From: a virus
IMG/VR virus record: IMGVR_UViG_3300009495_000004
Reading direction: 5' to 3' (one strand)
DNA length: 33,271 nucleotides
Shown here: one piece after another, positions 1,905-24,007 of the stretch
How the letters are laid out: each line of letters begins with the position of its first letter
Position numbering within the stretch: position 1 is the stretch's first letter
Translations under genes and position numbers: made by a program
Notes under the pieces: generated by a model
Told to the model about the DNA's origin: nothing
The model's input: the letters and a program-made list of their open reading frames with translations, nothing else
Database searches by the model: none

Positions 1905-2074
1905 TGAGTTTTCAGGATATGAAATTGTATGTAATGAATTTATCAGCGTTTACGTTAAGCTTTACTAATATAGATATGGCTTTAAAAATCATATTGCTTG
2001 CAGTTACTATCCTGTACACAACTCACAAATGGTATTTAATGTATGAAGAAAATAAGCGAAAACATAAGTTATAA
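1904..2074 (+). CDS. Small membrane protein (56 aa), candidate holin/antiholin
   Basis: Not in the ORF track (<60 aa). Its ATG overlaps the upstream stop as TAATG (1902..1906). The protein is MSFQDMKLYVMNLSAFTLSFTNIDMALKIILLAVTILYTTHKWYLMYEENKRKHKL, with a hydrophobic helix and a charged C-terminus. It overlaps the start of the endolysin gene. Confidence 0.45.
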   Translation: MSFQDMKLYVMNLSAFTLSFTNIDMALKIILLAVTILYTTHKWYLMYEENKRKHKL

Positions 2075-2513
2075 GGAAGCAACTTATTCTTTAACTGCTA
2101 AACAATTAGGTATTTCTAATAAGCCTAAAAAAGAGCATTTAGAAAATATGGAACTTTTAGCAGAAAAAGTATTTCAACCATTAAGAGAATGGGTAGGCGG
2201 TCCTATCAAAATAAATAGTTTTTATCGTTCAGAAGAATTAAATTCAAGAATTAACGGAGCATCAAAAACATCAGCTCATTTAGTTGGACAGGCTATTGAT
2301 ATTACAACAATGGGCAAGAAAACAAATAAAGAAATGTTTGATTATATTATCGAAAATTTAGATTTTGACCAAGTTATTTCTGAATACCCAATTAAAGGAG
2401 AGCCACAATGGATTCACGTTTCTTACGTTAGTAAAAAAGATAATCGTAAACAGGCATTAGAAATTAGAAGAAAAGGCAAATACTATACTTATACAGGCTG
2501 CAAAAATTGTTAA
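2043..2513 (+). CDS. Endolysin, peptidase M15 family (VanY / L-Ala-D-Glu peptidase type zinc peptidase)
   Basis: SFYRSEELNSRINGASKTSAHLVGQAIDI (H-x6-D) and PQWIHVSY supply the three zinc ligands typical of M15 phage endolysins. The gene is flanked by small membrane-protein genes. Confidence 0.85.
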   Translation: MKKISENISYKEATYSLTAKQLGISNKPKKEHLENMELLAEKVFQPLREWVGGPIKINSFYRSEELNSRINGASKTSAHLVGQAIDITTMGKKTNKEMFDYIIENLDFDQVISEYPIKGEPQWIHVSYVSKKDNRKQALEIRRKGKYYTYTGCKNC

Positions 2514-2659
2514 TGAGATTTGAGTTTGCAATTATTGAAAGATTTTTAATAGGGCCTTTATTAGGTTTTAGTTATTATGGAAAAGAATATAAAAAAGATT
2601 TTGAAGAATTAAATATCTATATAATTTTTATTGTGTTACATTTTAAATTTTATAATTAA
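2513..2659 (+). CDS. Small hydrophobic ORF (48 aa), possible lysis accessory protein
   Basis: Not in the ORF track. TAATG overlaps occur at both ends (2511..2515 and 2657..2661). The protein is MRFEFAIIERFLIGPLLGFSYYGKEYKKDFEELNIYIIFIVLHFKFYN. Confidence 0.35.
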   Translation: MRFEFAIIERFLIGPLLGFSYYGKEYKKDFEELNIYIIFIVLHFKFYN

Positions 2660-3066
2660 TGAAAAAAATATTTGCTAAATTATTTGGGGGTTCAGGAATA
2701 AGTATTGCTGAAAAATTATCTAATATAATAGGCAATCACGTTTTTAGTAAAGAAGAACAAGCGAGGTTTGAAAAGGAAATGGAAGAAGTTTTTATTAAAG
2801 CAGAAATTGATTTAGAAAAAGAAATTAGTTTAAGACACCAAAACGATATGGTTTCGGATAGTTGGTTAAGCAAGAATATAAGACCTTTATTAACTATATT
2901 CTCTCTAATACTTTATACAATATTTTCTATTACAGATGGCAATATTGGTAATTTTAACATACAAGACAATTACGTTTCTATGTTAGGCCAAATTGTTATA
3001 ATGAGTTTAGGATTTTATTTTACTTCAAGGGGTATAGAAAAAACTGCATCTATTTTAAAAAAGTAA
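2659..3066 (+). CDS. Holin-like membrane protein (135 aa)
   Basis: An N-terminal soluble part is followed by DSWLSKNIRPLLTIFSLILYTIFSI and QIVIMSLGFYFTS hydrophobic helices. From memory it resembles the 3-TM GTA-type holin family. Its position next to the endolysin supports the call. Confidence 0.55.
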   Translation: MKKIFAKLFGGSGISIAEKLSNIIGNHVFSKEEQARFEKEMEEVFIKAEIDLEKEISLRHQNDMVSDSWLSKNIRPLLTIFSLILYTIFSITDGNIGNFNIQDNYVSMLGQIVIMSLGFYFTSRGIEKTASILKK

Positions 3067-9433: not shown

Positions 9434-10303
9434 ATGCAAATTTATATATGCATTCGAGGACCTTTGTCTCCTCTCTGGAAAACATTAATGAAATTATATT
9501 TATCAGGAGCAACGACAGCAGGCAATATAAAAAACTATTGGAAAGAAGCAATGAAAGTATATTTAGCAGGTGGCAATTCTGGTTATAAATGGGCAGGGGA
9601 TTACAACGAATTAATCCAAACTCATAAACCATTAATTCTTGAAAGTTACTTTTATTTAAAAGGACAAGATGAATGGATATTAAATCTTAGACCTTTTTTT
9701 AAAGATTTCTTACTTGACTCAGGAGCTTTTACTTATTTAAATGGTTTAAAAGAATCTCCTGATTGGGATCGTTATATTGAAAATTATGCTGAATTTATTA
9801 ATAAACACAAGATTGATTTATTTATTGAATTAGATATTGATAGTGTTGTAGGTATTAAAGAGGTTGAAAGATTAAGAAATAAATTAGAGAGATTAACTAA
9901 TAAAAAAAGTATTCCTGTTTGGCATAAAAGTAGAGGCTTAGATTATTGGCATAAAATGGTAAAAGAATATGATTATGTTTCTATAGGCGGTATAGTAACT
10001 AAAGAGATTAAACAAAATGAATACGATATATTTTCTTTATTATTAAGAATAGCAAGAGAGAATAATTGTAAAGTTCACGGATTAGGTTTTACAAATTTAA
10101 AAGGTTTACAAAAATATAAGTTTTATTCTGTTGACTCTACTGCTTGGGTTTATGGTAATAGAGGGGGGTTTTTATATTTATTTAAAAATAATACCCTAAC
10201 AAAAATAGAGCCAAAGGGCAAAAGATTAAAAGGAAGAAAAGGCGCATTGCATAATTTTACAGAATGGTTAAAGTTTAGCCAATACGCAGAAAACAATTTA
10301 TAA
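9434..10303 (+). CDS. dpdA: DpdA-type DNA-guanine transglycosylase (TGT superfamily)
   Basis: PLILESYFYL and FLLDSGAFTYL motifs are as in phage/bacterial DpdA. The gene sits directly upstream of queC-queD-queE-folE. The start is uncertain (ATG at 9434, 9488 or 9551). Confidence 0.7.
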   Translation: MQIYICIRGPLSPLWKTLMKLYLSGATTAGNIKNYWKEAMKVYLAGGNSGYKWAGDYNELIQTHKPLILESYFYLKGQDEWILNLRPFFKDFLLDSGAFTYLNGLKESPDWDRYIENYAEFINKHKIDLFIELDIDSVVGIKEVERLRNKLERLTNKKSIPVWHKSRGLDYWHKMVKEYDYVSIGGIVTKEIKQNEYDIFSLLLRIARENNCKVHGLGFTNLKGLQKYKFYSVDSTAWVYGNRGGFLYLFKNNTLTKIEPKGKRLKGRKGALHNFTEWLKFSQYAENNL

Positions 10304-10969
10304 ATGAAAAAAGCATTAGTATTATTATCAGGAGGGCAAGACTCAACAACTTGTTTGTATTGGGCCAATAAACATTTTGATTATGTAGAGGCCATAGGTT
10401 TTGATTATGGACAAAGCCATAAACAAGAATTAAAACAGGCTAAAAAAATATCATCAAGATTAAATATAAAATATAAAATATTTGACATAAAAGGTTTGTT
10501 AGCATCATCATCATTAACAGAACATTCAGATCATTCGAAAGCATCTTACATTGATGATAGTTTGCCGGCATCTTTTACATCAGGCAGGAATATACTATTT
10601 TTAACTATTGCAGCAAGTTATGGAGCAGAGCAAGGAATTAATGATTTAATTACAGGAGTTTGCCAAACAGATTATAGTGGCTATCCTGATTGTAGAAAAA
10701 CAACTATTGATTCATTACAAACTACTTTATCTTTAGGCTTAGGTGCAGGAGATTATAGGATCCATACACCTTTAATGTATTTAGATAAAGCAGAAACTTG
10801 GAAAATGGCAAATGATTTAAATTGTTTAGATATTATTATAAATGACACATTAACTGATTACAATGGCGATATGACAAAAAACGAATGGGGTTATGGAAAT
10901 AAAGATAATCCTGCAACAGAGCTTAGAGTAAAAGGTTTTTATATAGCTAAAGAAAAAGGTTGGATATGA
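10304..10969 (+). CDS. queC: 7-cyano-7-deazaguanine synthase QueC homologue (lacks the zinc-cysteine cluster)
   Basis: A PP-loop LLSGGQDSTTCL, GRNILFL, ITGVCQTDYSGYPDCR and HTPLMYLDKAETW align well with B. subtilis QueC. The C-terminal Cys ligands are replaced. Confidence 0.9.
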   Translation: MKKALVLLSGGQDSTTCLYWANKHFDYVEAIGFDYGQSHKQELKQAKKISSRLNIKYKIFDIKGLLASSSLTEHSDHSKASYIDDSLPASFTSGRNILFLTIAASYGAEQGINDLITGVCQTDYSGYPDCRKTTIDSLQTTLSLGLGAGDYRIHTPLMYLDKAETWKMANDLNCLDIIINDTLTDYNGDMTKNEWGYGNKDNPATELRVKGFYIAKEKGWI

Positions 10970-11373
10970 AAATTGAAAAGAAATATTATTTTTATGCAGG
11001 CCACAGAAATAAAACTGCAGGAGAAAAATGCGGGAGATTACACGGCCATACTTATGATGTTAAATGCGTATTTAATTTTGATACAATGGTAAATGGCGTT
11101 ACAATGTTATTTAGCGATATTGACAAAAAAGTAGAGCCAATAATAAAATACTATGATCATTATTTTATATTATGGAATGAGGATCCACTTTGCGATATAT
11201 TAAAATTTGCAAATGAGCCATACAGAGAAGTTCCTTTTGAATCATCTGCAGAGAATATGGCAATATGGTTATTCAATAGAATCAAAAACGAAGCTAAGAT
11301 GCCAATTGAAAGAATAGAATTAGCTGAAACAAAAACAAGTAAAATAATATATGAGCCAAAAATTAGCGATTAG
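10960..11373 (+). CDS. queD: 6-carboxy-5,6,7,8-tetrahydropterin synthase QueD
   Basis: FYAGHRN...CGRLHGHTYDV is the canonical PTPS/QueD zinc/catalytic motif. The size (137 aa) fits. Confidence 0.9.
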   Translation: MDMKIEKKYYFYAGHRNKTAGEKCGRLHGHTYDVKCVFNFDTMVNGVTMLFSDIDKKVEPIIKYYDHYFILWNEDPLCDILKFANEPYREVPFESSAENMAIWLFNRIKNEAKMPIERIELAETKTSKIIYEPKISD

Positions 11374-12082
11374 CGAGGTATTTTACTCAATCCAAGGAGA
11401 GGGTAAGACTGTTGGGATCCCAAGTGTATTTGTTAGGCTTGGAGGTTGTAATTTAATGTGCGGAGGAATGGGAACTCAATTCGATGGAGAGTTACATAAC
11501 GGAGCAGAATTTAGATGCGATACAATAGAGGTATGGATGAAAGCAACCTCAAAAAATGTTAATGAAATATTAGATAAAGAATGTATAGAAGCAATAAAAC
11601 AAGGCGCTCACATTATTTTAACAGGTGGGGAACCAACAATGCAACAAAAAGGTTTAGAAGAGTTTATGAAATACGTTTACCAAGAAGTTAATCCTTTTGC
11701 TTATTTTGAAGTAGAAACTAACGGAACAATAATGCCTAACGAATATTTATTACTTAATATTGATTTATGGAATTGTAGTCCTAAACTTTTAAATTCAGGT
11801 AATGATAGGGCAATGACATTTAAACCAGAGATTATAAAAGAACTTAATAAACATAACTCAATTTTTAAATTTGTCATAAACGATTTAAAAGAATGGAATG
11901 AGGTTAAAGAGCTTTATTATGATATAGTAGATAAAAATAAAATATATTTAATGCCTGCAGGAGAAAATCAAGATCTACTAAATGAGAATAAATTAAATGT
12001 TGTAGAGTTAGCAATAAAAAATTATGTTAATTTCACAACAAGGTTACATATAGAAATTTGGAATAAAAAAACAGGAGTTTAA
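11351..12082 (+). CDS. queE: 7-carboxy-7-deazaguanine synthase QueE (radical SAM)
   Basis: EVFYSIQGEG...SVFVRLGGCNLMC...RCDT and ILTGGEPTM are QueE hallmarks. The Cys motif is split. Confidence 0.85.
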   Translation: MSQKLAISEVFYSIQGEGKTVGIPSVFVRLGGCNLMCGGMGTQFDGELHNGAEFRCDTIEVWMKATSKNVNEILDKECIEAIKQGAHIILTGGEPTMQQKGLEEFMKYVYQEVNPFAYFEVETNGTIMPNEYLLLNIDLWNCSPKLLNSGNDRAMTFKPEIIKELNKHNSIFKFVINDLKEWNEVKELYYDIVDKNKIYLMPAGENQDLLNENKLNVVELAIKNYVNFTTRLHIEIWNKKTGV

Positions 12083-12181
12083 TTATGGAAATTATAAAAC
12101 ACATTTTAGGATTTTGCGAGCATTCGCATCACATTAACATCTTTACAATATTTATTGTATTATTATTAATCAAATTAATTT

Positions 12182-13021
12182 ATGGAAAAAAGTTACGTAA
12201 GTTGGGAGGTCGTTTATGATCGCTTAAAAACTATACTTGAGAATACACCAAAGGATAAAACATTTTTTGGAGTGCCAAGAGGAGGGCAAATAGTATCAGG
12301 AATGACAGGTAGAGCAGTTGATAAAATAGAAGATGCTGATATTATAATTGATGATCTTATTGATAGCGGTGCAACTGAATTAAAATATAAAAAATATGAC
12401 AAACCTTTTGTTGCTTTAATTGATAAAAGAATTGAGCTACAAAATCAATGGTTAGTTTTTCCTTGGGAGGTTAAAGAAAAAGATACAGATGAAACTGTAG
12501 AAGATAATATCACAAGACTCTTACAATACTTTGGAGAAGATGTTACAAGAGAGGGATTAAGAGAAACACCTAAAAGATATGTTAAATTTTTTAAAGAGTT
12601 TTTAAATCCACCTAAATGGAATTGCACATCATTTGAGGGCGAGGGCTACGATGAAATGATAATACAAAAAAATATTCCTTTTCATTCTTTATGCGAACAT
12701 CATATAGCACCTTTCTTTGGCAAGGGCCACATTGCTTATATACCAAATAAAAAGATAGTAGGATTATCTAAATTGGCAAGAACTCTTGAAACATATTCAA
12801 GGCGATTACAAAATCAAGAAAGAATAACAACTCAGGTAGCAGAGTTTCTTTGGAATGAATTAGATCCAAAGGGGGTTGCCGTATCATTAACCGCAGTGCA
12901 TATGTGTATGGAAATGAGAGGAGTAAAAAAACATAATACTCAAACAACTACAAATAAATTGTTAGGAAAATTTAAAGAGGATTCTGTTGTTAGAAATGAA
13001 TTTTTAAGCTCAATAAGATGA
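12182..13021 (+). CDS. folE: Fusion protein: N-terminal Gpt-like phosphoribosyltransferase domain plus GTP cyclohydrolase I (FolE)
   Basis: Residues 1-97 (YVSWEVVYDRL...VPRGGQIVSG...ADIIIDDLIDSGATE...WLVFPWEV) parallel E. coli Gpt (YIVTWDML...VSRGGLVPG...FIVIDDLVDTGGT...WIEQPWDM). Residues from about 100 to 279 carry SLCEHHIAPFFGKGHIAYIP...VGLSKLAR...RLQNQERIT from FolE. Confidence 0.85.
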   Translation: MEKSYVSWEVVYDRLKTILENTPKDKTFFGVPRGGQIVSGMTGRAVDKIEDADIIIDDLIDSGATELKYKKYDKPFVALIDKRIELQNQWLVFPWEVKEKDTDETVEDNITRLLQYFGEDVTREGLRETPKRYVKFFKEFLNPPKWNCTSFEGEGYDEMIIQKNIPFHSLCEHHIAPFFGKGHIAYIPNKKIVGLSKLARTLETYSRRLQNQERITTQVAEFLWNELDPKGVAVSLTAVHMCMEMRGVKKHNTQTTTNKLLGKFKEDSVVRNEFLSSIR

Positions 13022-13374: not shown

Positions 13375-14512
13375 TATTGTTTATAAGCATTTAGTAAATA
13401 GCAATAAAAAAATAATAGTTGAGCAGGGCGGAACTCGATCAGGAAAGACATATAATATTCTTCTTTATATAATTTTTCATTATTGTATTAATAATAGAAA
13501 TAAAATAATAACTATTTGCCGTAAAACATTTCCAAGTTTAAGAGCAACAGTATTAAGAGATTTTTTACAGATATTAAATCAACATCAAATATACAGAGAG
13601 GATTTTCATAACAAATCAAATAGCGAGTATAATCTTTTTGGCAACTTAGTTGAATTTACATCGTTAGATCAATCGCAAAAAATTAGAGGAAGAAAAAGAG
13701 ATCTACTTTTTATTAATGAGGGAAATGAATTATATATTGATGACTGGAGACAATTAATCTTTAGAACACAAGAAAGAGTTATATTAGATTTTAACCCCTC
13801 AGATGAGTATCATTGGATATATGATCAAGTTCTTACAAGAGAAGATTGCGATTTTTATAAGACAACTTATTTAGATAACCCTTTTTTAGAGGATATTATA
13901 AAACTTGAGATTGAGAGATTAAAAGAAACAGATGATCAGTATTGGCAAATTTATGGATTAGGCGAGAGAGCAACGAGCATCAATACAATTTTTAAATATG
14001 TTGAGATAAATAAAATACCAGATGATGCGAAGTTTATTAGTTATGGCGCAGATGCAGGATTTACAAATGATCCTTCAACTTTAGTTAGTGTTTATATTAA
14101 AGATTATAATTTATATATTAAAGAGCATCTATATAGAACAATGATGACAACACTTGATATACATAAAACATTTAAAGAGGTTGGGATCCAAAGACAACAG
14201 ATCTATTTTGATTCAGCAGAACCTCGCTTAATTGCTGAATTGCGTAGAATGGGTTGGAATATATTTCCAAGTTTAAAAGGCAAAGATTCAGTTAATGCCG
14301 GAATTGATTTATTAAAAAGATATAAGATTCATATTACATCTGATTCAAAAAATGCTATTCAAGAGTTTAGAAATTATAAATGGAAACAAGATAGAACAGG
14401 AAATTTAACTAACATTCCTGAGGATAAAAATAACCACATTACAGACGCAGTGCGTTACGCAACTTATTCAATACTATCAAGACCTAATTTTGGAAGATAT
14501 GCCATACAATAA
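13349..14512 (+). CDS. terL: Terminase large subunit (PBSX/XtmB-like), non-ATG (TTG) start
   Basis: Walker A EQGGTRSGKTY, Walker B-like DLLFINEGNE, and the nuclease-domain motif GADAGFTNDPS. There is no in-frame ATG upstream of Walker A, so TTG at 13349 or a nearby non-ATG codon must initiate. Confidence 0.85.
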   Translation: MIKPKIQTNIVYKHLVNSNKKIIVEQGGTRSGKTYNILLYIIFHYCINNRNKIITICRKTFPSLRATVLRDFLQILNQHQIYREDFHNKSNSEYNLFGNLVEFTSLDQSQKIRGRKRDLLFINEGNELYIDDWRQLIFRTQERVILDFNPSDEYHWIYDQVLTREDCDFYKTTYLDNPFLEDIIKLEIERLKETDDQYWQIYGLGERATSINTIFKYVEINKIPDDAKFISYGADAGFTNDPSTLVSVYIKDYNLYIKEHLYRTMMTTLDIHKTFKEVGIQRQQIYFDSAEPRLIAELRRMGWNIFPSLKGKDSVNAGIDLLKRYKIHITSDSKNAIQEFRNYKWKQDRTGNLTNIPEDKNNHITDAVRYATYSILSRPNFGRYAIQ

Positions 14513-14633
14513 ACAATGTAAAAAATGCGATAATGATTACGTTTACATAGGTTCTGCTCAAAATGGTTTTATTTGGTTATGTAAAAAATGTAATTATTTA
14601 GAATGGGCGCCGGATCCTGACAAGATAAATTAA
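14499..14633 (+). CDS. Small zinc-ribbon protein, 44 aa
   Basis: Not in the ORF track. The protein is MPYNKQCKKCDNDYVYIGSAQNGFIWLCKKCNYLEWAPDPDKIN with two CxxC pairs. It overlaps the terL 3' end by 14 nt. Confidence 0.4.
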   Translation: MPYNKQCKKCDNDYVYIGSAQNGFIWLCKKCNYLEWAPDPDKIN

Positions 14634-14634
14634 G

Positions 14635-14666
14635 TTTGTATATTAAATATATTATATATATATTTG
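14635..14666 (+). promoter_or_regulatory. Bacteroidota-type sigma-A promoter: TTTG (-33), 20-nt spacer, TATATTTG (-7)
   Basis: TTTG at 14635..14638 and TATATTTG at 14659..14666. The element is intergenic, 28 nt upstream of the ATG at 14694. Confidence 0.6.
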
Positions 14667-15617: not shown

Positions 15618-15649
15618 TTTGGTAGTTATATATTTTATATATATATTTG
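15618..15649 (+). promoter_or_regulatory. Bacteroidota-type sigma-A promoter: TTTG, 20-nt spacer, TATATTTG
   Basis: TTTG at 15618..15621 and TATATTTG at 15642..15649. The geometry is the same as at 14635..14666. The element is intergenic, upstream of the ATG at 15690. Confidence 0.6.
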
Positions 15650-15689
15650 TTGTATATTAATAATTAAGTTAATATAAAAACAAAACAAA

Positions 15690-15875
15690 ATGAAAAAGAA
15701 TTTAATTTTTTACAAACACAAATTGTTTCAAAACACAGATGACAAAGATGAAACTTGGTACGAACTTGTATGGTTTACAGATTATGGAACTAAAAATCAA
15801 GAAATACAAACTAAAAGTTTTGATACTGTGAAACAAGCAGAGAAATTTATACAATTTCAAGAGAACTTAATTTAA
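15690..15875 (+). CDS. Hypothetical protein, 61 aa
   Basis: ORF track. It is the first gene after the second host-type promoter. Confidence 0.45.
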   Translation: MKKNLIFYKHKLFQNTDDKDETWYELVWFTDYGTKNQEIQTKSFDTVKQAEKFIQFQENLI

Positions 15876-15909: not shown

Positions 15910-16143
15910 ATGAAACAAATAAAATTTAATTACGATTCAAAAACTATATTAATTAAAAAAGATAAAGAAATAAAAGAAGATATAGAAACTTGTAAAAATA
16001 TATTGTCAGATTTAGAACAGCTAATTATTGTTAGAAAAAAAGAAGACGCTGAAAATCAAAAATGGTGGGATGATAGAAAAAAGTTTACTAATGATTGGAT
16101 GAGTTTAATAGATAAATTAAACGATAAATTAATTGAAAAATAA
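15910..16143 (+). CDS. Hypothetical protein, 77 aa, Lys/Glu/Asp-rich
   Basis: ORF track. Followed by the GC-rich element. Confidence 0.45.
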   Translation: MKQIKFNYDSKTILIKKDKEIKEDIETCKNILSDLEQLIIVRKKEDAENQKWWDDRKKFTNDWMSLIDKLNDKLIEK

Positions 16144-16155
16144 ATTAACTTAACA

Positions 16156-16246
16156 GGGGGGTCGACAAAACAATCAAGGTGGATAGCTATAAGGTGTACA
16201 ACTTTTAACCACTGCAACGGGGCAGGAGAGCCAGAACAGACCCCCC
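16156..16246 (+). ncRNA. GC-rich structured element of unknown class (candidate ncRNA / structured 5' leader / protein-binding DNA site)
   Basis: A perfect 8-bp closing inverted repeat, GGGGGGTC (16156..16163) with GACCCCCC (16239..16246). Internal palindromes GTCGAC, ATAGCTAT and TGTACA, plus a CTGC-aacggg-GCAG hairpin. G+C is far above the surrounding sequence. The element is intergenic, and the strand assignment is only by context. Confidence 0.35.
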
Positions 16247-16262
16247 ATATTAAATATAAAAT

Positions 16263-16529
16263 ATGAAACAAATATCAAATAGCATAGTAGTAGAATACGA
16301 ACATTTCCTTTTAGAGGTTGATTATGATTGGAGAAAAGGACACGCAGGAGATTATTATAATGCTCCTGAGCCAAACGAAACAGATATTAAAAAAGTAATA
16401 GTAACAGGTTATATAAATGATGATGGCAGTATCGAGGATTTAGATACAGAGGTTGAATTTGAGATGTATGATTTATCTAAAAAACATATATTAGAAGAAA
16501 TAGAATATGATGTTGAAAGTTTAATGTAA
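16263..16529 (+). CDS. Strongly acidic small protein, 88 aa (23 Asp+Glu)
   Basis: ORF track. Contains ...GYINDDGSIEDLDTEVEFEMYDLSKKHILEEIEYDVESLM. A terminator follows. Confidence 0.55.
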   Translation: MKQISNSIVVEYEHFLLEVDYDWRKGHAGDYYNAPEPNETDIKKVIVTGYINDDGSIEDLDTEVEFEMYDLSKKHILEEIEYDVESLM

Positions 16530-16553: not shown

Positions 16554-16583
16554 AGGTGTTTAGAAATAAGCACCTTTTTTTTT
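16554..16583 (+). terminator. Rho-independent terminator
   Basis: Stem aggtgt/gcacct (one G-U pair) with a 10-nt loop, followed by T9. Confidence 0.7.
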
Positions 16584-16602
16584 GATTAAATTTTTAAATT
16601 AA

Positions 16603-22064: not shown

Positions 22065-24007
22065 AAATAAAAGCTATACAGATAAGCGCTGAAACTAAAG
22101 AGGCTCAAAAAAGATTAGAAGCAATAAATCTTACTTTAGAACAACAAGAAGACTTGCTCAATGATATTCAAAGAGAAATAGAAAAGATTGAGGATTTAAG
22201 AGATAAAACAGACCCTAAAGATTTAAACAGAATAAAAGAATATAACGAGGAGATAAAAAAACAGGAGAAATTTCTTAAAAGAACTAAAACAAGAATAACT
22301 GAACAAAGACAAGCAAGAACAAAAGAAAACAAAGCAGTTAAAGAAAGCATAAAAGAACAAAGAGATTATGGAGGAGTTTTAGGAATTATTGACAAACAAA
22401 CAGGGGGTCTTATTAGTTCTTTTCAAGGTTTTACAACAAGCATAGGGGGTGCAACAAAAGGTTTAAAAGCAATGCGTATTGCATTTATAGCAACAGGGGT
22501 TGGTGCCTTTGTTATTGCTATAACATCTTTAGTTGCAGCATTTACTCAAAGTGAAGAAGGACAAGAAAAATTACAAAGAGGTTTAAAAATGTTAGGAGCA
22601 GTTGTAAAGCAAGTAATGGACTCATTTGCTGATTTAGGCGAGGGTATTATTGAAGCAGTTACAAACCCTAAAAAAGCATTAGAAGATTTAGGTAGCGGTA
22701 TATTAAAGTTTTTAAAAAATCCAATAGATACTGTTGTAGGCGCTTTTAAAGATGCTAAAGAATCAGCAACTAATTTTATTGAGGAAACTAAAAAGGAAGT
22801 TCTTGCAATGGATGAGATTACAAAAGCAAGACAAAAAGCACATCATATTGAAAGAGATTTACAAATTGAAAGAGCAAAAGCCAATAGAGAAATAAACGAT
22901 ATAAGATTACAAGCTGAGGACAGAGAGAATAAAACTGCTGCCGAAAGAATTGTTTTATTAAGAAAAGCACAAAAAATAGAAGAAGAAATAACACAAAAAG
23001 AAATAGATGCCAAAACTCTTTTAATTGAGGCTCAAGAAAAAGAAATGGCTCAAGGCAAGAACACTATCCAAGACAAAGATAAACTTGCAAAGATGCAAGC
23101 AGAGTTAATAAACTTAGATACTAAAAAACTTAGAAGCCAAAGACTATTACAAACTCAAATAACCACTGCAATAAGAGAAGAGCAAAGAATTAAAGATGAG
23201 AAAATAAAAGAGGATGAAGCTAAACTTCAAGAACAAGCACAGAAAGATGCTGATATGATTCTAAAAGCATTTAGCGATGAACAAAAAAGATTGCAAGGCT
23301 TAAAAGATATTAAAGATAATTTTGAAGCAATGGTTGCAGAGGAGAATGCTATCAAAGAGGAAGAAAAAGCAATACTTGAAAAAGAAAAAGCATTGAAAGA
23401 ACTTGATGATTTAAATGCAACAGAAGAACAAAAAGCAGCAATAGTAGCTTATTGGGATAATCAAATATTGATAGGTAAAAAGAAAGATACTGATGCCGAA
23501 ACAAAACTCAACGAGGATGTTACAAAAGCTAAATTAGATATTGCAAAAAGAAGTATGGCATTAATTGGAGAATTAGCAGGTAGGGGAAGCAAAATAGGTA
23601 AAGCAATGGCAATAGGACAAGCAACTATCTCAGGAATTGAGGGTGTTCAAAATGCTTATTCAACGGCACAAAAGAGTCCGATAACTGCTTTATTTCCTGC
23701 ATATCCAATTATACAAGCAGGTTTAGCAGGAGCATTTAGTGCTTTGCAAATTAAAAAGATAGCCTCTACTAAAGCCGATGGTAAAGGAGCAATGCCTACA
23801 CCAAATGTAAGTGGTGGAGGAGGTGGAGCACCTGCAATGCCATCAGCACCGCCTGCATTTAATGTAGTAGGCCAAGGAGGAACAAGCCAATTAGCAAATG
23901 CTATCGGATCTCGCGAGAGTAGGCCAACAAGAGCATACGTTGTAAGCAATGATGTTACAACTGCACAGGGGTTAGAAAGAAATATTGTAGAGGGAGCAAC
24001 GATATAA
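22061..24007 (+). CDS. Tape-measure-like protein (648 aa)
   Basis: Long Lys/Glu coiled-coil stretches, a hydrophobic segment MRIAFIATGVGAFVIAITSLVAAF, and a C-terminal AMAIGQATISGIEGVQNAYSTAQ...IIQAGLAGAFSALQ plus a Gly/Pro-rich tail. These are typical of TMPs, although a podovirus internal-protein role cannot be excluded. Confidence 0.5.
   Translation: MKIKAIQISAETKEAQKRLEAINLTLEQQEDLLNDIQREIEKIEDLRDKTDPKDLNRIKEYNEEIKKQEKFLKRTKTRITEQRQARTKENKAVKESIKEQRDYGGVLGIIDKQTGGLISSFQGFTTSIGGATKGLKAMRIAFIATGVGAFVIAITSLVAAFTQSEEGQEKLQRGLKMLGAVVKQVMDSFADLGEGIIEAVTNPKKALEDLGSGILKFLKNPIDTVVGAFKDAKESATNFIEETKKEVLAMDEITKARQKAHHIERDLQIERAKANREINDIRLQAEDRENKTAAERIVLLRKAQKIEEEITQKEIDAKTLLIEAQEKEMAQGKNTIQDKDKLAKMQAELINLDTKKLRSQRLLQTQITTAIREEQRIKDEKIKEDEAKLQEQAQKDADMILKAFSDEQKRLQGLKDIKDNFEAMVAEENAIKEEEKAILEKEKALKELDDLNATEEQKAAIVAYWDNQILIGKKKDTDAETKLNEDVTKAKLDIAKRSMALIGELAGRGSKIGKAMAIGQATISGIEGVQNAYSTAQKSPITALFPAYPIIQAGLAGAFSALQIKKIASTKADGKGAMPTPNVSGGGGGAPAMPSAPPAFNVVGQGGTSQLANAIGSRESRPTRAYVVSNDVTTAQGLERNIVEGATI

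What the first reader, a model, noticed from the sequence alone, without database searches (positions are those of the whole stretch)
16156..16246. 91-nt GC-rich structured island of unknown class between two small genes
In an otherwise AT-rich genome, the 119-nt gap between 16143 and 16263 contains a segment of roughly 50% G+C. It is closed by a perfect 8-bp inverted repeat, GGGGGGTC...GACCCCCC. Inside are the palindromes GTCGAC (16161..16166), ATAGCTAT (16183..16190) and TGTACA (16195..16200), a CTGC-aacggg-GCAG hairpin (16212..16225) and a possible GGTGG/CCACT helix (16178..16182 with 16209..16213). It does not fold as a tRNA on either strand: there is no D or T arm and no GTTCRA loop. I could not match it to the purine, preQ1, THF, SRP, tmRNA or hammerhead signatures I know. 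It ends 16 nt before the ATG of a highly acidic protein. A cis-regulatory leader such as a riboswitch or thermosensor, a small ncRNA, or a DNA site (replication origin, pac, or recombination or protein-binding site) are all possible.
Basis: seen in the sequence. Interest (0 to 1): 0.65.

Follow-up and report, generated by a model that had tools for sequence, protein, structure and literature searches.

The report
Conserved 91-nt structured phage RNA
The GC-rich island is a real, strongly conserved 91-nucleotide folded RNA of no known family that unrelated marine phages carry among shuffling accessory genes. It probably works as an RNA in its own right, not as a switch for the gene behind it, and its function is still unknown.

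Summary
Window 16156-16246 is a 49-50% G+C island in a 29% G+C phage genome, closed by GGGGGGTC/GACCCCCC.

About 80 marine viral and metagenome contigs carry it: 39 distinct gap-free 91-nt versions, plus one divergent copy shifted by 1 nt. The closing stem covaries at 5 of 8 pairs. The GGUGG/CCACU stem and an inner hairpin are kept through compensatory and G-U changes that work only on the + strand.

The 67-nt core is 95% identical between copies, against 72% for the stem and linkers. The phages share as little as 30-40% TerL identity and almost no other genes.

The element has no Rfam or tRNA match. It was not found in 401 Flavobacteriaceae genomes, and a 24-nt core pattern is absent from the 185,579-species genome collection.

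It sits in small-ORF islands with Bacteroidota-type promoters and terminators. It starts 2-23 nt after unrelated upstream ORFs. It lies before unrelated ORFs, or directly before a terminator with no ORF.

The apical hexamer stays self-complementary (UGUACA, UGCGCA, UGCGUA), which hints at kissing-loop dimers.

Best reading: an autonomous phage RNA acting on a host component. The mechanism is inferred, not shown. A riboswitch, a leader for the acidic protein, a DNA site and a CRISPR-repeat mimic are all disfavoured.

The parts
16156..16246 (+). The 91-nt structured RNA element: a three-way junction closed by P1.
   Evidence: CM R1 scores it 117 bits. There are 39 distinct gap-free homologues. 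Covariation is shown.
16156..16163 (+). P1, 5' strand (GGGGGGUC). It pairs with 16239-16246.
   Evidence: 5 of 8 pairs show changes on both sides: GC/AU/UA at pairs 1, 2, 3 and 6, and CG/GC at pair 8. Cells paired: 96.8%.
16239..16246 (+). P1, 3' strand (GACCCCCC).
   Evidence: G-U variants (CCCUCC, CCCCUC) are compatible only with the + strand RNA.
16164..16177 (+). J1/2, a 14-nt A-rich single strand (GACAAAACAAUCAA). It is nearly invariant from position 10 of the element onward.
   Evidence: Invariant columns in A2 and A4. No partner was found in the phage + strand or in rRNA operons.
16178..16213 (+). The P2-P3 arm. GGUGG/CCACU is at 16178-16182/16209-16213 and UA/UA at 16184-16185/16206-16207. 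The 5-nt bulge GCUAU follows, then AAGGU/ACUUU at 16191-16195/16201-16205.
   Evidence: UA->CG double change at pair 25-56. GU<->AU and GC<->GU one-sided changes. 99% of cells paired. RNAalifold predicts the same arm.
16195..16200 (+). Apical self-complementary hexamer UGUACA, a candidate kissing-loop dimerisation site.
   Evidence: The variants UGCGCA (L328, L330, L331, L332) and UGCGUA (L329) stay self-complementary as RNA. 100% of cells paired, with one double change and one G-U.
16183..16190 (+). Invariant 8-nt palindrome AUAGCUAU spanning the P2/P3 internal loop.
   Evidence: Invariant in all 39 sequences. Its role is untested.
16220..16233 (+). Weak P4 hairpin: (G)RGC-ARRAGA-GCC(A).
   Evidence: There are only two invariant G-C pairs, and position 66 gives A.C in most copies. 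The divergent copy L151 has a perfect AUGC/GCAU stem here.
16234..16238 (+). Freely varying linker (with position 78) between P4 and P1.
   Evidence: At least 10 sequence variants. The periphery is 72% identical between copies, against 95% for the core.
16142..16155 (+). Conserved AU-rich 5' flank AAAUUAACUUAACA, which overlaps the stop codon of the upstream ORF.
   Evidence: It is kept behind four unrelated upstream ORF families.
15618..15649 (+). Bacteroidota-type promoter TTTG-N20-TATATTTG, which starts the transcription unit holding the element.
   Evidence: Pattern match and sequence. Similar promoters lie 250-1400 nt upstream of the element in other phages.
15910..16143 (+). Upstream 77-aa ORF (no family match). 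Its stop codon ends 12 nt before the element.
16263..16529 (+). Downstream acidic 88-aa ORF (no family match). It is not a constant partner of the element.
16554..16585 (+). Intrinsic terminator that closes the unit.
   Evidence: Homologous terminators follow the element in relatives.

Best explanation
The island encodes a discrete 91-nt RNA read from the + strand.

Structure:
- An 8-bp G/C clamp (P1) closes a three-way junction.
- A 14-nt A-rich single strand leads into a long bulged arm (P2-P3) that ends in a self-complementary hexamer.
- A small purine-loop hairpin (P4) and a free linker follow.

Expression (shown): it has no promoter of its own. It is co-transcribed in short accessory ('moron') units, driven by host-type Bacteroidota promoters and closed by intrinsic terminators.

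Evolution (shown): it behaves as an independent cassette. It is found with different upstream and downstream genes, in different places of otherwise unrelated phage genomes, and always as one copy.

Mechanism (inferred): it acts as an RNA in its own right. It is either a stable RNA or a stable domain left after the AU-rich flanks are trimmed. It most likely binds a conserved host component, because no phage protein is conserved alongside it. It may do so as a kissing-loop homodimer, and the likely role is host take-over or counter-defence. It is not a regulator dedicated to the acidic protein gene behind it.
For: Real and conserved:
- About 80 contigs carry it, giving 39 distinct versions with no indel at all.

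Structure:
- 95.7% of cells are paired, against 40-55% for slid controls.
- 7 pairs have double changes.
- The covariation score is 0.174 against 0.093 in shuffles; 0 of 500 shuffles reach it.
- RNAalifold gives the same P1, P2 and P3.

Strand:
- The 79 G-U cells on the + strand would be A.C mismatches on the - strand.
- All genes are on the + strand.

Selection on the core:
- 95% against 72% pairwise identity, Fisher p = 2e-4.
- The carrier phages have TerL identities down to 30-40%.
- The complete genomes G406 and G407 share only TerS, TerL, the endolysin/holin pair and a few small ORFs with the window.

Independence from neighbours:
- Four unrelated upstream ORF families and at least 12 downstream families.
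- In L137 and in the L160/L082 type the element is followed by a terminator with no ORF.

Transcription unit:
- Promoters; terminator.

Phage-specific:
- No CM match in 401 Flavobacteriaceae genomes.
- A 24-nt core pattern is absent from the 185,579-species collection.

Same slot in relatives:
- It holds a tRNA-Met or another structured island.

Dimer hint:
- UGUACA, UGCGCA and UGCGUA are all self-complementary.
Against: - There is no expression data.
- No partner has been identified.
- The element nearly always ends 15-20 nt before a start codon, which would also fit a cis role in translation or mRNA stability.
- The sequence diversity is narrow. P2, P3 and P4 rest on few independent changes, and part of the core invariance could reflect recent horizontal spread.
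- The dimer idea rests on two variant loop types from five contigs. Transitions alone could give them with a probability of roughly 0.1.
- The host is only inferred, from the promoter type and distant TerL relatives.
Confidence: 0.5

Rival explanations
1. It is a cis-acting mRNA element that travels with a translation start region. The stable domain could insulate or enhance initiation of the next cistron in SD-less Bacteroidota translation. It could protect the flanking cistrons from RNases as a punctuation or stabiliser element. Or, like HK022 put RNA, it could make the transcribing RNA polymerase read through the terminator behind it.
For: - It ends 15-20 nt before an ATG in about 70 of 80 contexts and starts 2-23 nt after a stop codon.
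- The 3' flank AYAUUAAAA is semi-conserved.
- A terminator lies 16-550 nt downstream in most contexts.
- In L054 a different structured island occupies the same position between a promoter and an ATG.
- Binding to the ribosome or RNA polymerase would explain conservation without any phage partner.
Against: - Two lineages keep an intact element with no downstream ORF before the terminator.
- A stabiliser needs stems, not about 55 invariant nucleotides in loops and junctions.
- Relatives without the element have the same neighbouring genes (acid88, p216) in the same order, so those genes do not depend on it.
- The late operon behind the terminator has its own start region.
Confidence: 0.25
2. 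It is a new class of self-cleaving ribozyme that cuts the accessory transcript between cistrons.
For: - It is compact and has a very conserved core, with a variable closing stem and a variable linker.
- It lies between genes in phage operons, where hammerhead, twister, pistol and hatchet ribozymes are typically found (established knowledge).
- It has no indels.
Against: - No Rfam ribozyme family matches, even at E<=10.
- No known catalytic core motif is recognisable.
- Contig ends inside the element fall at different positions, as expected for assembly breaks and not for a cleavage site.
- No biochemical data exist.
Confidence: 0.07
3. It is a riboswitch or another ligand- or temperature-sensing leader.
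For: - It has a three-way junction with conserved junction nucleotides and a variable P1.
- The phage makes preQ0-type 7-deazaguanine.
- The A-rich strand ACAAAACAA..AAGG resembles the tail of class I preQ1 aptamers (my recollection, not tested).
Against: - There is no match to preQ1-I, II or III or to any other riboswitch model.
- The element and the que cluster do not co-occur. L003/L004 have que but no element, and L005 and most carriers have the element but no que.
- There is no conserved expression platform. The downstream content varies or is absent.
- An 8-bp G/C P1 would be formed constitutively.
Confidence: 0.05
4. It is a DNA-level site: a binding site for a dimeric protein at the palindromes, a packaging or replication signal, a single-strand DNA hairpin, or a recombination joint for cassette shuffling.
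For: - It contains the palindromes GTCGAC, ATAGCTAT and TGTACA.
- In many carriers it lies near the terminase genes.
- It sits at the borders of shuffling gene cassettes.
- Contigs often break inside it.
Against: - Compensatory changes preserve pairing, not sequence. The G-T/G-U pattern is strand-specific.
- The loop variant TGCGTA is not a DNA palindrome but is self-complementary as RNA.
- There is one copy per genome, so it cannot recombine within a genome.
- Its position varies: after TerL, after the capsid gene, or upstream of ParB.
- The number of 6-nt palindromes is about what chance gives.
Confidence: 0.05
5. It is a decoy that copies a host RNA: a CRISPR repeat (RNA anti-CRISPR), a tRNA part or an rRNA segment.
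For: - It is expressed from host-type promoters among probable early accessory genes, next to a very acidic small protein.
- Cas9 is common in Flavobacteriaceae: 34 of 151 genomes.
Against: - Similarity to the 36-nt and 47-nt type II-C repeats of 14 loci is no better than for shuffled sequence.
- No 11- or 12-mer is shared with 131 Bacteroidota rRNA-operon loci.
- There is no CM hit in 401 genomes.
- It is not tRNA-like.
- Only type II-C repeats were sampled. Types VI-B, III and I were not.
Confidence: 0.04

Closest known systems
Orphan structured RNA motifs of phages and metagenomes (Rfam motifs of unknown function; the 8,495 unnamed 'DNAVirus_X' candidates from the IMG/VR intergenic screen of Fremin, Bhatt and Kyrpides 2023, PMC10690425)
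   Same: It is a short, covarying, intergenic RNA structure found by conservation in viral contigs, with no assigned function.
   Different: It matches no Rfam model. Whether it is one of the unnamed IMG/VR candidates could not be checked, because the supplements are not held. The extra points here are the extreme core conservation across unrelated phages, the cassette behaviour and the self-complementary loop.
Phage 'morons' and phage-borne tRNA genes
   Same: It lies in an insertion bounded by a host-type promoter and a terminator, between essential late genes. It is present or absent among close relatives. A relative has tRNA-Met in the same slot.
   Different: It is neither a protein gene nor a tRNA. 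It is an RNA of unknown class that shares the unit with small ORFs.
phi29 pRNA (packaging RNA)
   Same: It is a phage-encoded RNA of about 100 nt with paired 5'/3' ends, a three-way junction and loops that can pair between molecules. It often lies near the packaging genes.
   Different: It does not match the Rfam pRNA model. The loops here are self-complementary, not a left/right complementary pair. These phages use TerS/TerL terminases, not a phi29-type motor. The position is not fixed relative to the terminase.
Kissing-loop dimerisation hairpins (e.g. the retroviral DIS)
   Same: A six-base self-complementary sequence sits in an apical loop flanked by a purine. The natural variants stay self-complementary.
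   Different: The organism and context are unrelated. Dimerisation here is only inferred from two variant types.
HK022 put RNA and other cis-acting antitermination RNAs
   Same: It is a phage RNA structure that needs no phage protein, is transcribed upstream of an intrinsic terminator, and could act on a conserved host machine.
   Different: It has a different architecture (put is two stem-loops). It lies 250-1400 nt from the promoter and at the end of the unit, not the beginning. No read-through data exist.

Membership tests
tRNA / tRNA-like | Cloverleaf with D arm, anticodon arm and T arm (GTTCRA-type loop), detectable by ARAGORN | tested here: not met
   ARAGORN finds no gene in the whole window. 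The 17 nt before the 3' strand of P1 cannot form a T arm (sequence). As a positive control, ARAGORN finds tRNA-Met in L041.
Any Rfam 15 family (riboswitches, ribozymes, pRNA, SRP, tmRNA, 6S, Y RNA, r-protein leaders) | Covariance-model score at or near the family's gathering threshold | tested here: not met
   There are 0 hits at gathering score in the window. At E<=10 on 301 nt, the only hit is a meaningless SCARNA7 match of 7.9 bits.
preQ1 riboswitch (classes I-III) | Match to an aptamer model, and a location upstream of queuosine/7-deazaguanine synthesis or transport genes | tested here: not met
   No model match. The element lies 3 kb downstream of the que/dpdA block. Its presence is uncorrelated with that block among relatives.
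Riboswitch in general | A conserved aptamer coupled to an expression platform controlling a consistent set of downstream genes | tested here: not met
   The downstream genes belong to at least 12 unrelated families, or are absent. Ligand binding cannot be tested with these tools.
Self-cleaving ribozyme | Site-specific self-scission | not testable with these tools
   Only indirect evidence exists. There is no match to the hammerhead, twister, twister-sister, pistol, hatchet, hairpin or HDV models.
RNA anti-CRISPR / solitary repeat unit | Sequence and structure similarity to the CRISPR repeat of a host system | tested here: inconclusive
   Similarity to 14 Flavobacteriaceae type II-C repeats is no better than for shuffled sequence. 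The true host and the other CRISPR types were not examined.
phi29-type pRNA | Paired 5'/3' helix, three-way junction and two mutually complementary loops, in a phage with a phi29-type packaging ATPase | tested here: not met
   The helix and three-way junction are present. The loops are self-complementary, not mutually complementary. The phage has TerS/TerL. There is no Rfam pRNA hit.
Phage moron (independent accessory transcription unit) | Own promoter and terminator, insertion between conserved genes, presence/absence polymorphism | tested here: met
   The promoter is at 15618-15649 and the terminator at 16554-16585. In some relatives TerL is followed directly by p216. G406 has the same kind of island after the capsid gene.
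Integron attC / MITE-like mobile DNA | Many copies per replicon, target-site duplications or an integrase partner, and conserved end sequences rather than conserved pairing | tested here: not met
   There is one copy per genome. The immediate flanks are not duplicated. The ends covary to keep pairing.

The most novel reading that the evidence does not exclude
The element is the founding member of a new class of small phage RNAs. In this reading they self-assemble through self-complementary loops into a kissing-loop homodimer or higher oligomer. They act in trans on a conserved Bacteroidota host machine or defence system, as an RNA-only counter-defence or take-over factor traded between unrelated phages.
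Probability: 0.15. Interest if true: 0.8.

Novelty: new variant of a known kind. Interest (0 to 1): 0.58.

Why it matters
Phage accessory islands are searched for protein-coding anti-defence and take-over genes, and RNA genes in them are mostly overlooked. Here one RNA is the best-conserved sequence shared by phages that have almost nothing else in common. That points to a strong, host-directed function.

Marine Flavobacteriia are major degraders of algal-bloom carbon, and they lack Hfq, ProQ and Shine-Dalgarno-led initiation. Any well-defined RNA that acts in them is therefore useful as a handle.

The motif is small, has no indels and has clear stems. It is ready for structure probing, dimerisation assays and pull-downs. 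If it proves to be a ribozyme, a self-assembling RNA or a decoy, it would add a new class.

Tried and rejected
1. **tRNA or tmRNA.** ARAGORN finds none.
2. **Any Rfam family.** None matches.
3. **Cultured-phage homologue.** blastn of 1.3 kb against 50,697 phage records finds no match.
4. **Host-encoded copy or attP-like identity.**
   - A 24-nt core pattern is absent from 185,579 species genomes.
   - The CM finds nothing in 5 genomes and then 401 Flavobacteriaceae genomes. The best hit is one chance-level match at E = 0.09.
5. **Diverged homologues in the 80 closest TerL relatives.** The CM finds none; hits at E >= 0.5 are noise.
6. **Link to the 7-deazaguanine genes.** There is no co-occurrence.
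7. **Base-pairing target in the phage's own + strand.** No target was found for the A-rich strand or the 3' conserved block.
8. **Mimicry of, or pairing with, rRNA operons.** No shared 11- or 12-mers in 131 Bacteroidota loci.
9. **CRISPR type II-C repeat mimic.** No similarity.
10. **Stop-codon read-through or frameshift stimulator.**
    - In the window, the frame after the up77 stop is open through the whole element.
    - Spacings between stop codon and element of 2, 3, 8, 11, 13, 19 and 23 nt put other contexts in frames closed by the element's own stop triplets (read from the sequence).
    - The open frame in the window is therefore chance.
11. **Small peptide inside the element.** There is no ATG. 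The only GTG frame gives 9 codons, and the invariance is not of the synonymous-site kind.
12. **Own promoter directly upstream.** The conserved TAAYTTAAC does not fit TAnnTTTG.
13. **Host identification by spacer or prophage matches.** The last 20 kb of the window, searched against 401 Flavobacteriaceae genomes, gave only AT-rich promoter-like matches.
14. **One IMG/VR scan was wasted on a mis-typed pattern** and was repeated correctly.

Full report
**1. Observation**

The window is nearly a whole IMG/VR virus record of 33.3 kb, rated 100% complete. It has 29% G+C, and all genes are on the + strand.

Between the 77-aa ORF 15910-16143 and the acidic 88-aa ORF 16263-16529 lies a 119-nt gap. Its centre, 16156-16246, has 49-50% G+C against 12-33% around it.

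As RNA, the + strand folds to -28 kcal/mol (z = -2.5) and the - strand to -33.7 kcal/mol (z = -4.0). Single-sequence energy therefore cannot choose the strand.

ARAGORN finds no tRNA or tmRNA. Rfam 15 finds nothing at gathering score in the whole window. At E<=10 on 301 nt it finds only a meaningless 7.9-bit hit.

**2. Relatives**

No cultured phage has the region. Exact-pattern scans of IMG/VR and of metagenome contigs, followed by blastn and a covariance model, recovered the element in 44 IMG/VR contigs and about 50 metagenome contigs. All are marine by their names (TARA, Ga0..., JGI).

Some metagenome contigs are the same records as IMG/VR contigs. The copies collapse to 39 distinct 91-nt sequences plus one more divergent copy, L151. 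Not one of the 39 has an insertion or deletion.

Each of the eight virus records searched whole (three of them at least 94% complete) has exactly one copy. Among the 80 closest TerL relatives of the window phage, only one (L005) has it. A CM search finds no diverged version in the others. It is therefore a present/absent accessory feature.

**3. Structure and strand**

On the gap-free alignment, the structure P1 (1-8/84-91), P2 (23-27/54-58 plus 29-30/51-52), P3 (36-40/46-50) and P4 (66-68/75-77) gives these results:
- 95.7% of cells form standard pairs, against 40-55% when partners are slid by 1-3 columns.
- 7 pairs have changes on both sides.
- The covariation score is 0.174 against 0.093 in shuffles; 0 of 500 shuffles reach it (the earlier version is).

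Helix by helix:
- **P1** carries most of the signal. GGGGGGUC/GACCCCCC also occurs as GAGGGGUG/CACCCCUC, AGGGGAUC/GAUCCCCU, GGGGGGUG/CACCCCCC and AGAGGGUG/CACCCUCA. There are 21 end haplotypes in all.
- **P2** has one double change (UA->CG in L127/L129) and several G-U/A-U switches.
- **P3** has a G-U->G-C plus A-U->G-U shift in L108.
- **P4** is weak. It has two invariant G-C pairs, and position 66 reads A.C in most copies. Only L151, with AUGC/GCAU, supports it.

RNAalifold independently returns P1, P2 and P3.

The strand question is settled by the wobble pairs. The 79 G-U cells on the + strand would be A.C mismatches on the - strand. This fits the fact that all genes are on the + strand.

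**4. Selection**

P1 and the two linkers (columns 1-10 and 78-91) are on average 72% identical between copies. The 67-nt core is 95% identical. Variable columns number 18 of 24 in the periphery against 20 of 67 in the core (Fisher p = 2e-4).

The carriers are very different phages. Their TerL identity to the window ranges from 100% down to 30%. The complete genomes G406 and G407 share with the window only the following:
- TerS and TerL (40%);
- an M15 endolysin, a holin and the small ORF between them;
- a few other small ORFs.

The shared lysis genes suggest a common host group. The RNA is better conserved than any protein these phages share. No phage protein is conserved alongside it, so a dedicated phage-encoded partner is unlikely. 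This last step is inference.

**5. Context**

The upstream ORF ends 2-23 nt before P1 and belongs to one of four unrelated families. The next ORF starts 15-20 nt after P1 in most contexts and belongs to at least 12 unrelated families. None has a Pfam or PHROG match.

In L137 a terminator begins 16 nt after the element. In the L160/L082 type a terminator begins 60 nt after it, and no ORF lies between. The L082 type still shows the remnant of the acidic-protein start region.

In the window, Bacteroidota-type promoters (TTTG-N19-20-TAnnTTTG) lie at 14635-14666 and 15618-15649. This confirms an earlier first-stage note. An intrinsic terminator lies at 16554-16585. The transcription unit is therefore promoter, 61-aa ORF, 77-aa ORF, element, acidic ORF, terminator.

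The same layout recurs elsewhere: a promoter 250-1400 nt upstream and a terminator 16-550 nt downstream. In G406 the island sits after the major capsid gene and not after TerL. In the L113/L129 type it lies upstream of ParB.

In relatives the slot after TerL holds other things:
- tRNA-Met in L041;
- a different structured island right behind a promoter in L054, with z = -2.8 and no Rfam hit;
- small Cys-rich ORFs.

The element therefore behaves like one more cassette of a moron island, and the cassette is an RNA.

**6. What it is not**

- **Not tied to the que genes.** The phage has a DpdA/QueC/QueD/QueE/FolE block, but the block and the element do not co-occur.
- **Not host-derived, as far as tested.** There is no exact 24-mer in 185,579 species genomes and no CM hit in 401 Flavobacteriaceae genomes.
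- **No obvious pairing target.** None was found in the phage itself or in Bacteroidota rRNA operons.
- **Not a type II-C CRISPR repeat mimic**.
- **Not a read-through or frameshift signal.** The spacing to the stop codon varies in all three frames.
- **Not a multi-copy mobile DNA**.

**7. A new detail**

The apical hexamer of P3 is UGUACA in 37 sequences. It is UGCGCA in four contigs (one distinct complete sequence; the L332 copy is cut) and UGCGUA in one. All three are self-complementary as RNA, the last through G-U pairs, although TGCGTA is not a DNA palindrome.

A six-base self-complementary apical loop that stays self-complementary when it changes is what a kissing-loop homodimer would need. 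The evidence is thin. There are only two variant types, all changes are transitions, and the chance probability is roughly 0.1 by my own estimate. The invariant AUAGCUAU in the internal loop cannot be judged, because it never varies.

**8. Mechanism**

*Shown:*
- It is a + strand RNA structure under purifying selection.
- It is co-transcribed in accessory units with host-type promoters.
- It is independent of its neighbouring genes.
- It is phage-specific.

*Inferred:*
- It acts as an autonomous RNA on a conserved host component, possibly as a dimer.
- It plays a take-over or counter-defence role typical of such islands.

I give this reading 0.5. The rivals are:

| Rival | Confidence |
|---|---|
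| cis role in translation, mRNA stability or antitermination | 0.25 |
| new self-cleaving ribozyme | 0.07 |
| riboswitch | 0.05 |
| DNA site | 0.05 |
| host-RNA decoy | 0.04 |

That it is a genuine functional structured RNA at all I put at about 0.9.

**9. Novelty**

The element matches no curated family. A published screen of IMG/VR intergenic regions lists 8,495 unnamed candidate structured RNAs (PMC10690425). This motif may be among them, but the supplements are not held, so I could not check.

The kind of thing is known: an orphan structured RNA in a phage accessory island. Three points are unusual:
- the degree of core conservation across unrelated phages;
- its behaviour as an RNA cassette;
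- the self-complementary loop.

**10. Limits**

- The host was not identified beyond the promoter type and distant TerL relatives.
- Sequence diversity is narrow.
- The CM E-values are rough.

Noticed in passing
L054 7186-7320: In a TerL relative that lacks the element, the same slot holds a different GC-rich structured island. It has a 12-bp closing stem and z = -2.8. It lies right behind a TTTG-N19-TATATTTG promoter and about 17 nt before an ATG. It has no Rfam match.
   Followed up: partly
L041 7564-7639: A tRNA-Met (CAT) gene lies in the variable region after TerL in another relative. The slot therefore accepts RNA genes.
   Followed up: yes
window 14635-14666 and 15618-15649: Two intergenic Bacteroidota-type promoters (TTTG-N20-TAnnTTTG) head the two small-ORF groups between TerL and the virion genes. 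The region around 15619-15713 also gives 80-94% matches to AT-rich stretches in many Flavobacteriaceae genomes.
   Followed up: partly
window 9434-13021: A block of DpdA-like transglycosylase, QueC, QueD-size ORF, QueE and FolE genes (7-deazaguanine DNA modification) lies directly before TerS/TerL. It is present in only a few relatives (L002-L004, L024, L106).
   Followed up: partly
window 2043-3066; G406 22090-23174; G407 32380-33437: An M15 endolysin, a 50-aa ORF and a holin are among the few genes shared (28-56% identity) by otherwise unrelated carriers of the element. This suggests a common host group.
   Followed up: partly
L111, L112, L142, L157, L332 (contig ends): Five contigs end inside the element, each at a different position. 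This is as expected if assemblers break where a conserved sequence is shared by different co-occurring phages.
   Followed up: no
window 16141-16266: The frame following the TAA of the 77-aa ORF stays open through the whole element and closes at a TGA that overlaps the ATG of the acidic ORF. The spacing differs in other contexts, so this is judged to be chance.
   Followed up: yes
L003 9935-10066, L034 4050-4180, L075 4230-4345 and others: Other GC-richer islands after TerL in relatives are small Cys-rich (CxxC...CxxC) ORFs. They resemble window ORF 14490-14633 and are not RNA elements.
   Followed up: no
window 16142-16155 and 16247-16256: The AU-rich flanks AAAUUAACUUAACA and AUAUUAAAUA are semi-conserved in all contexts. 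Each contains UUAA and could extend P1 by a weak 4-bp helix across an internal loop. They may mark processing sites.
   Followed up: no
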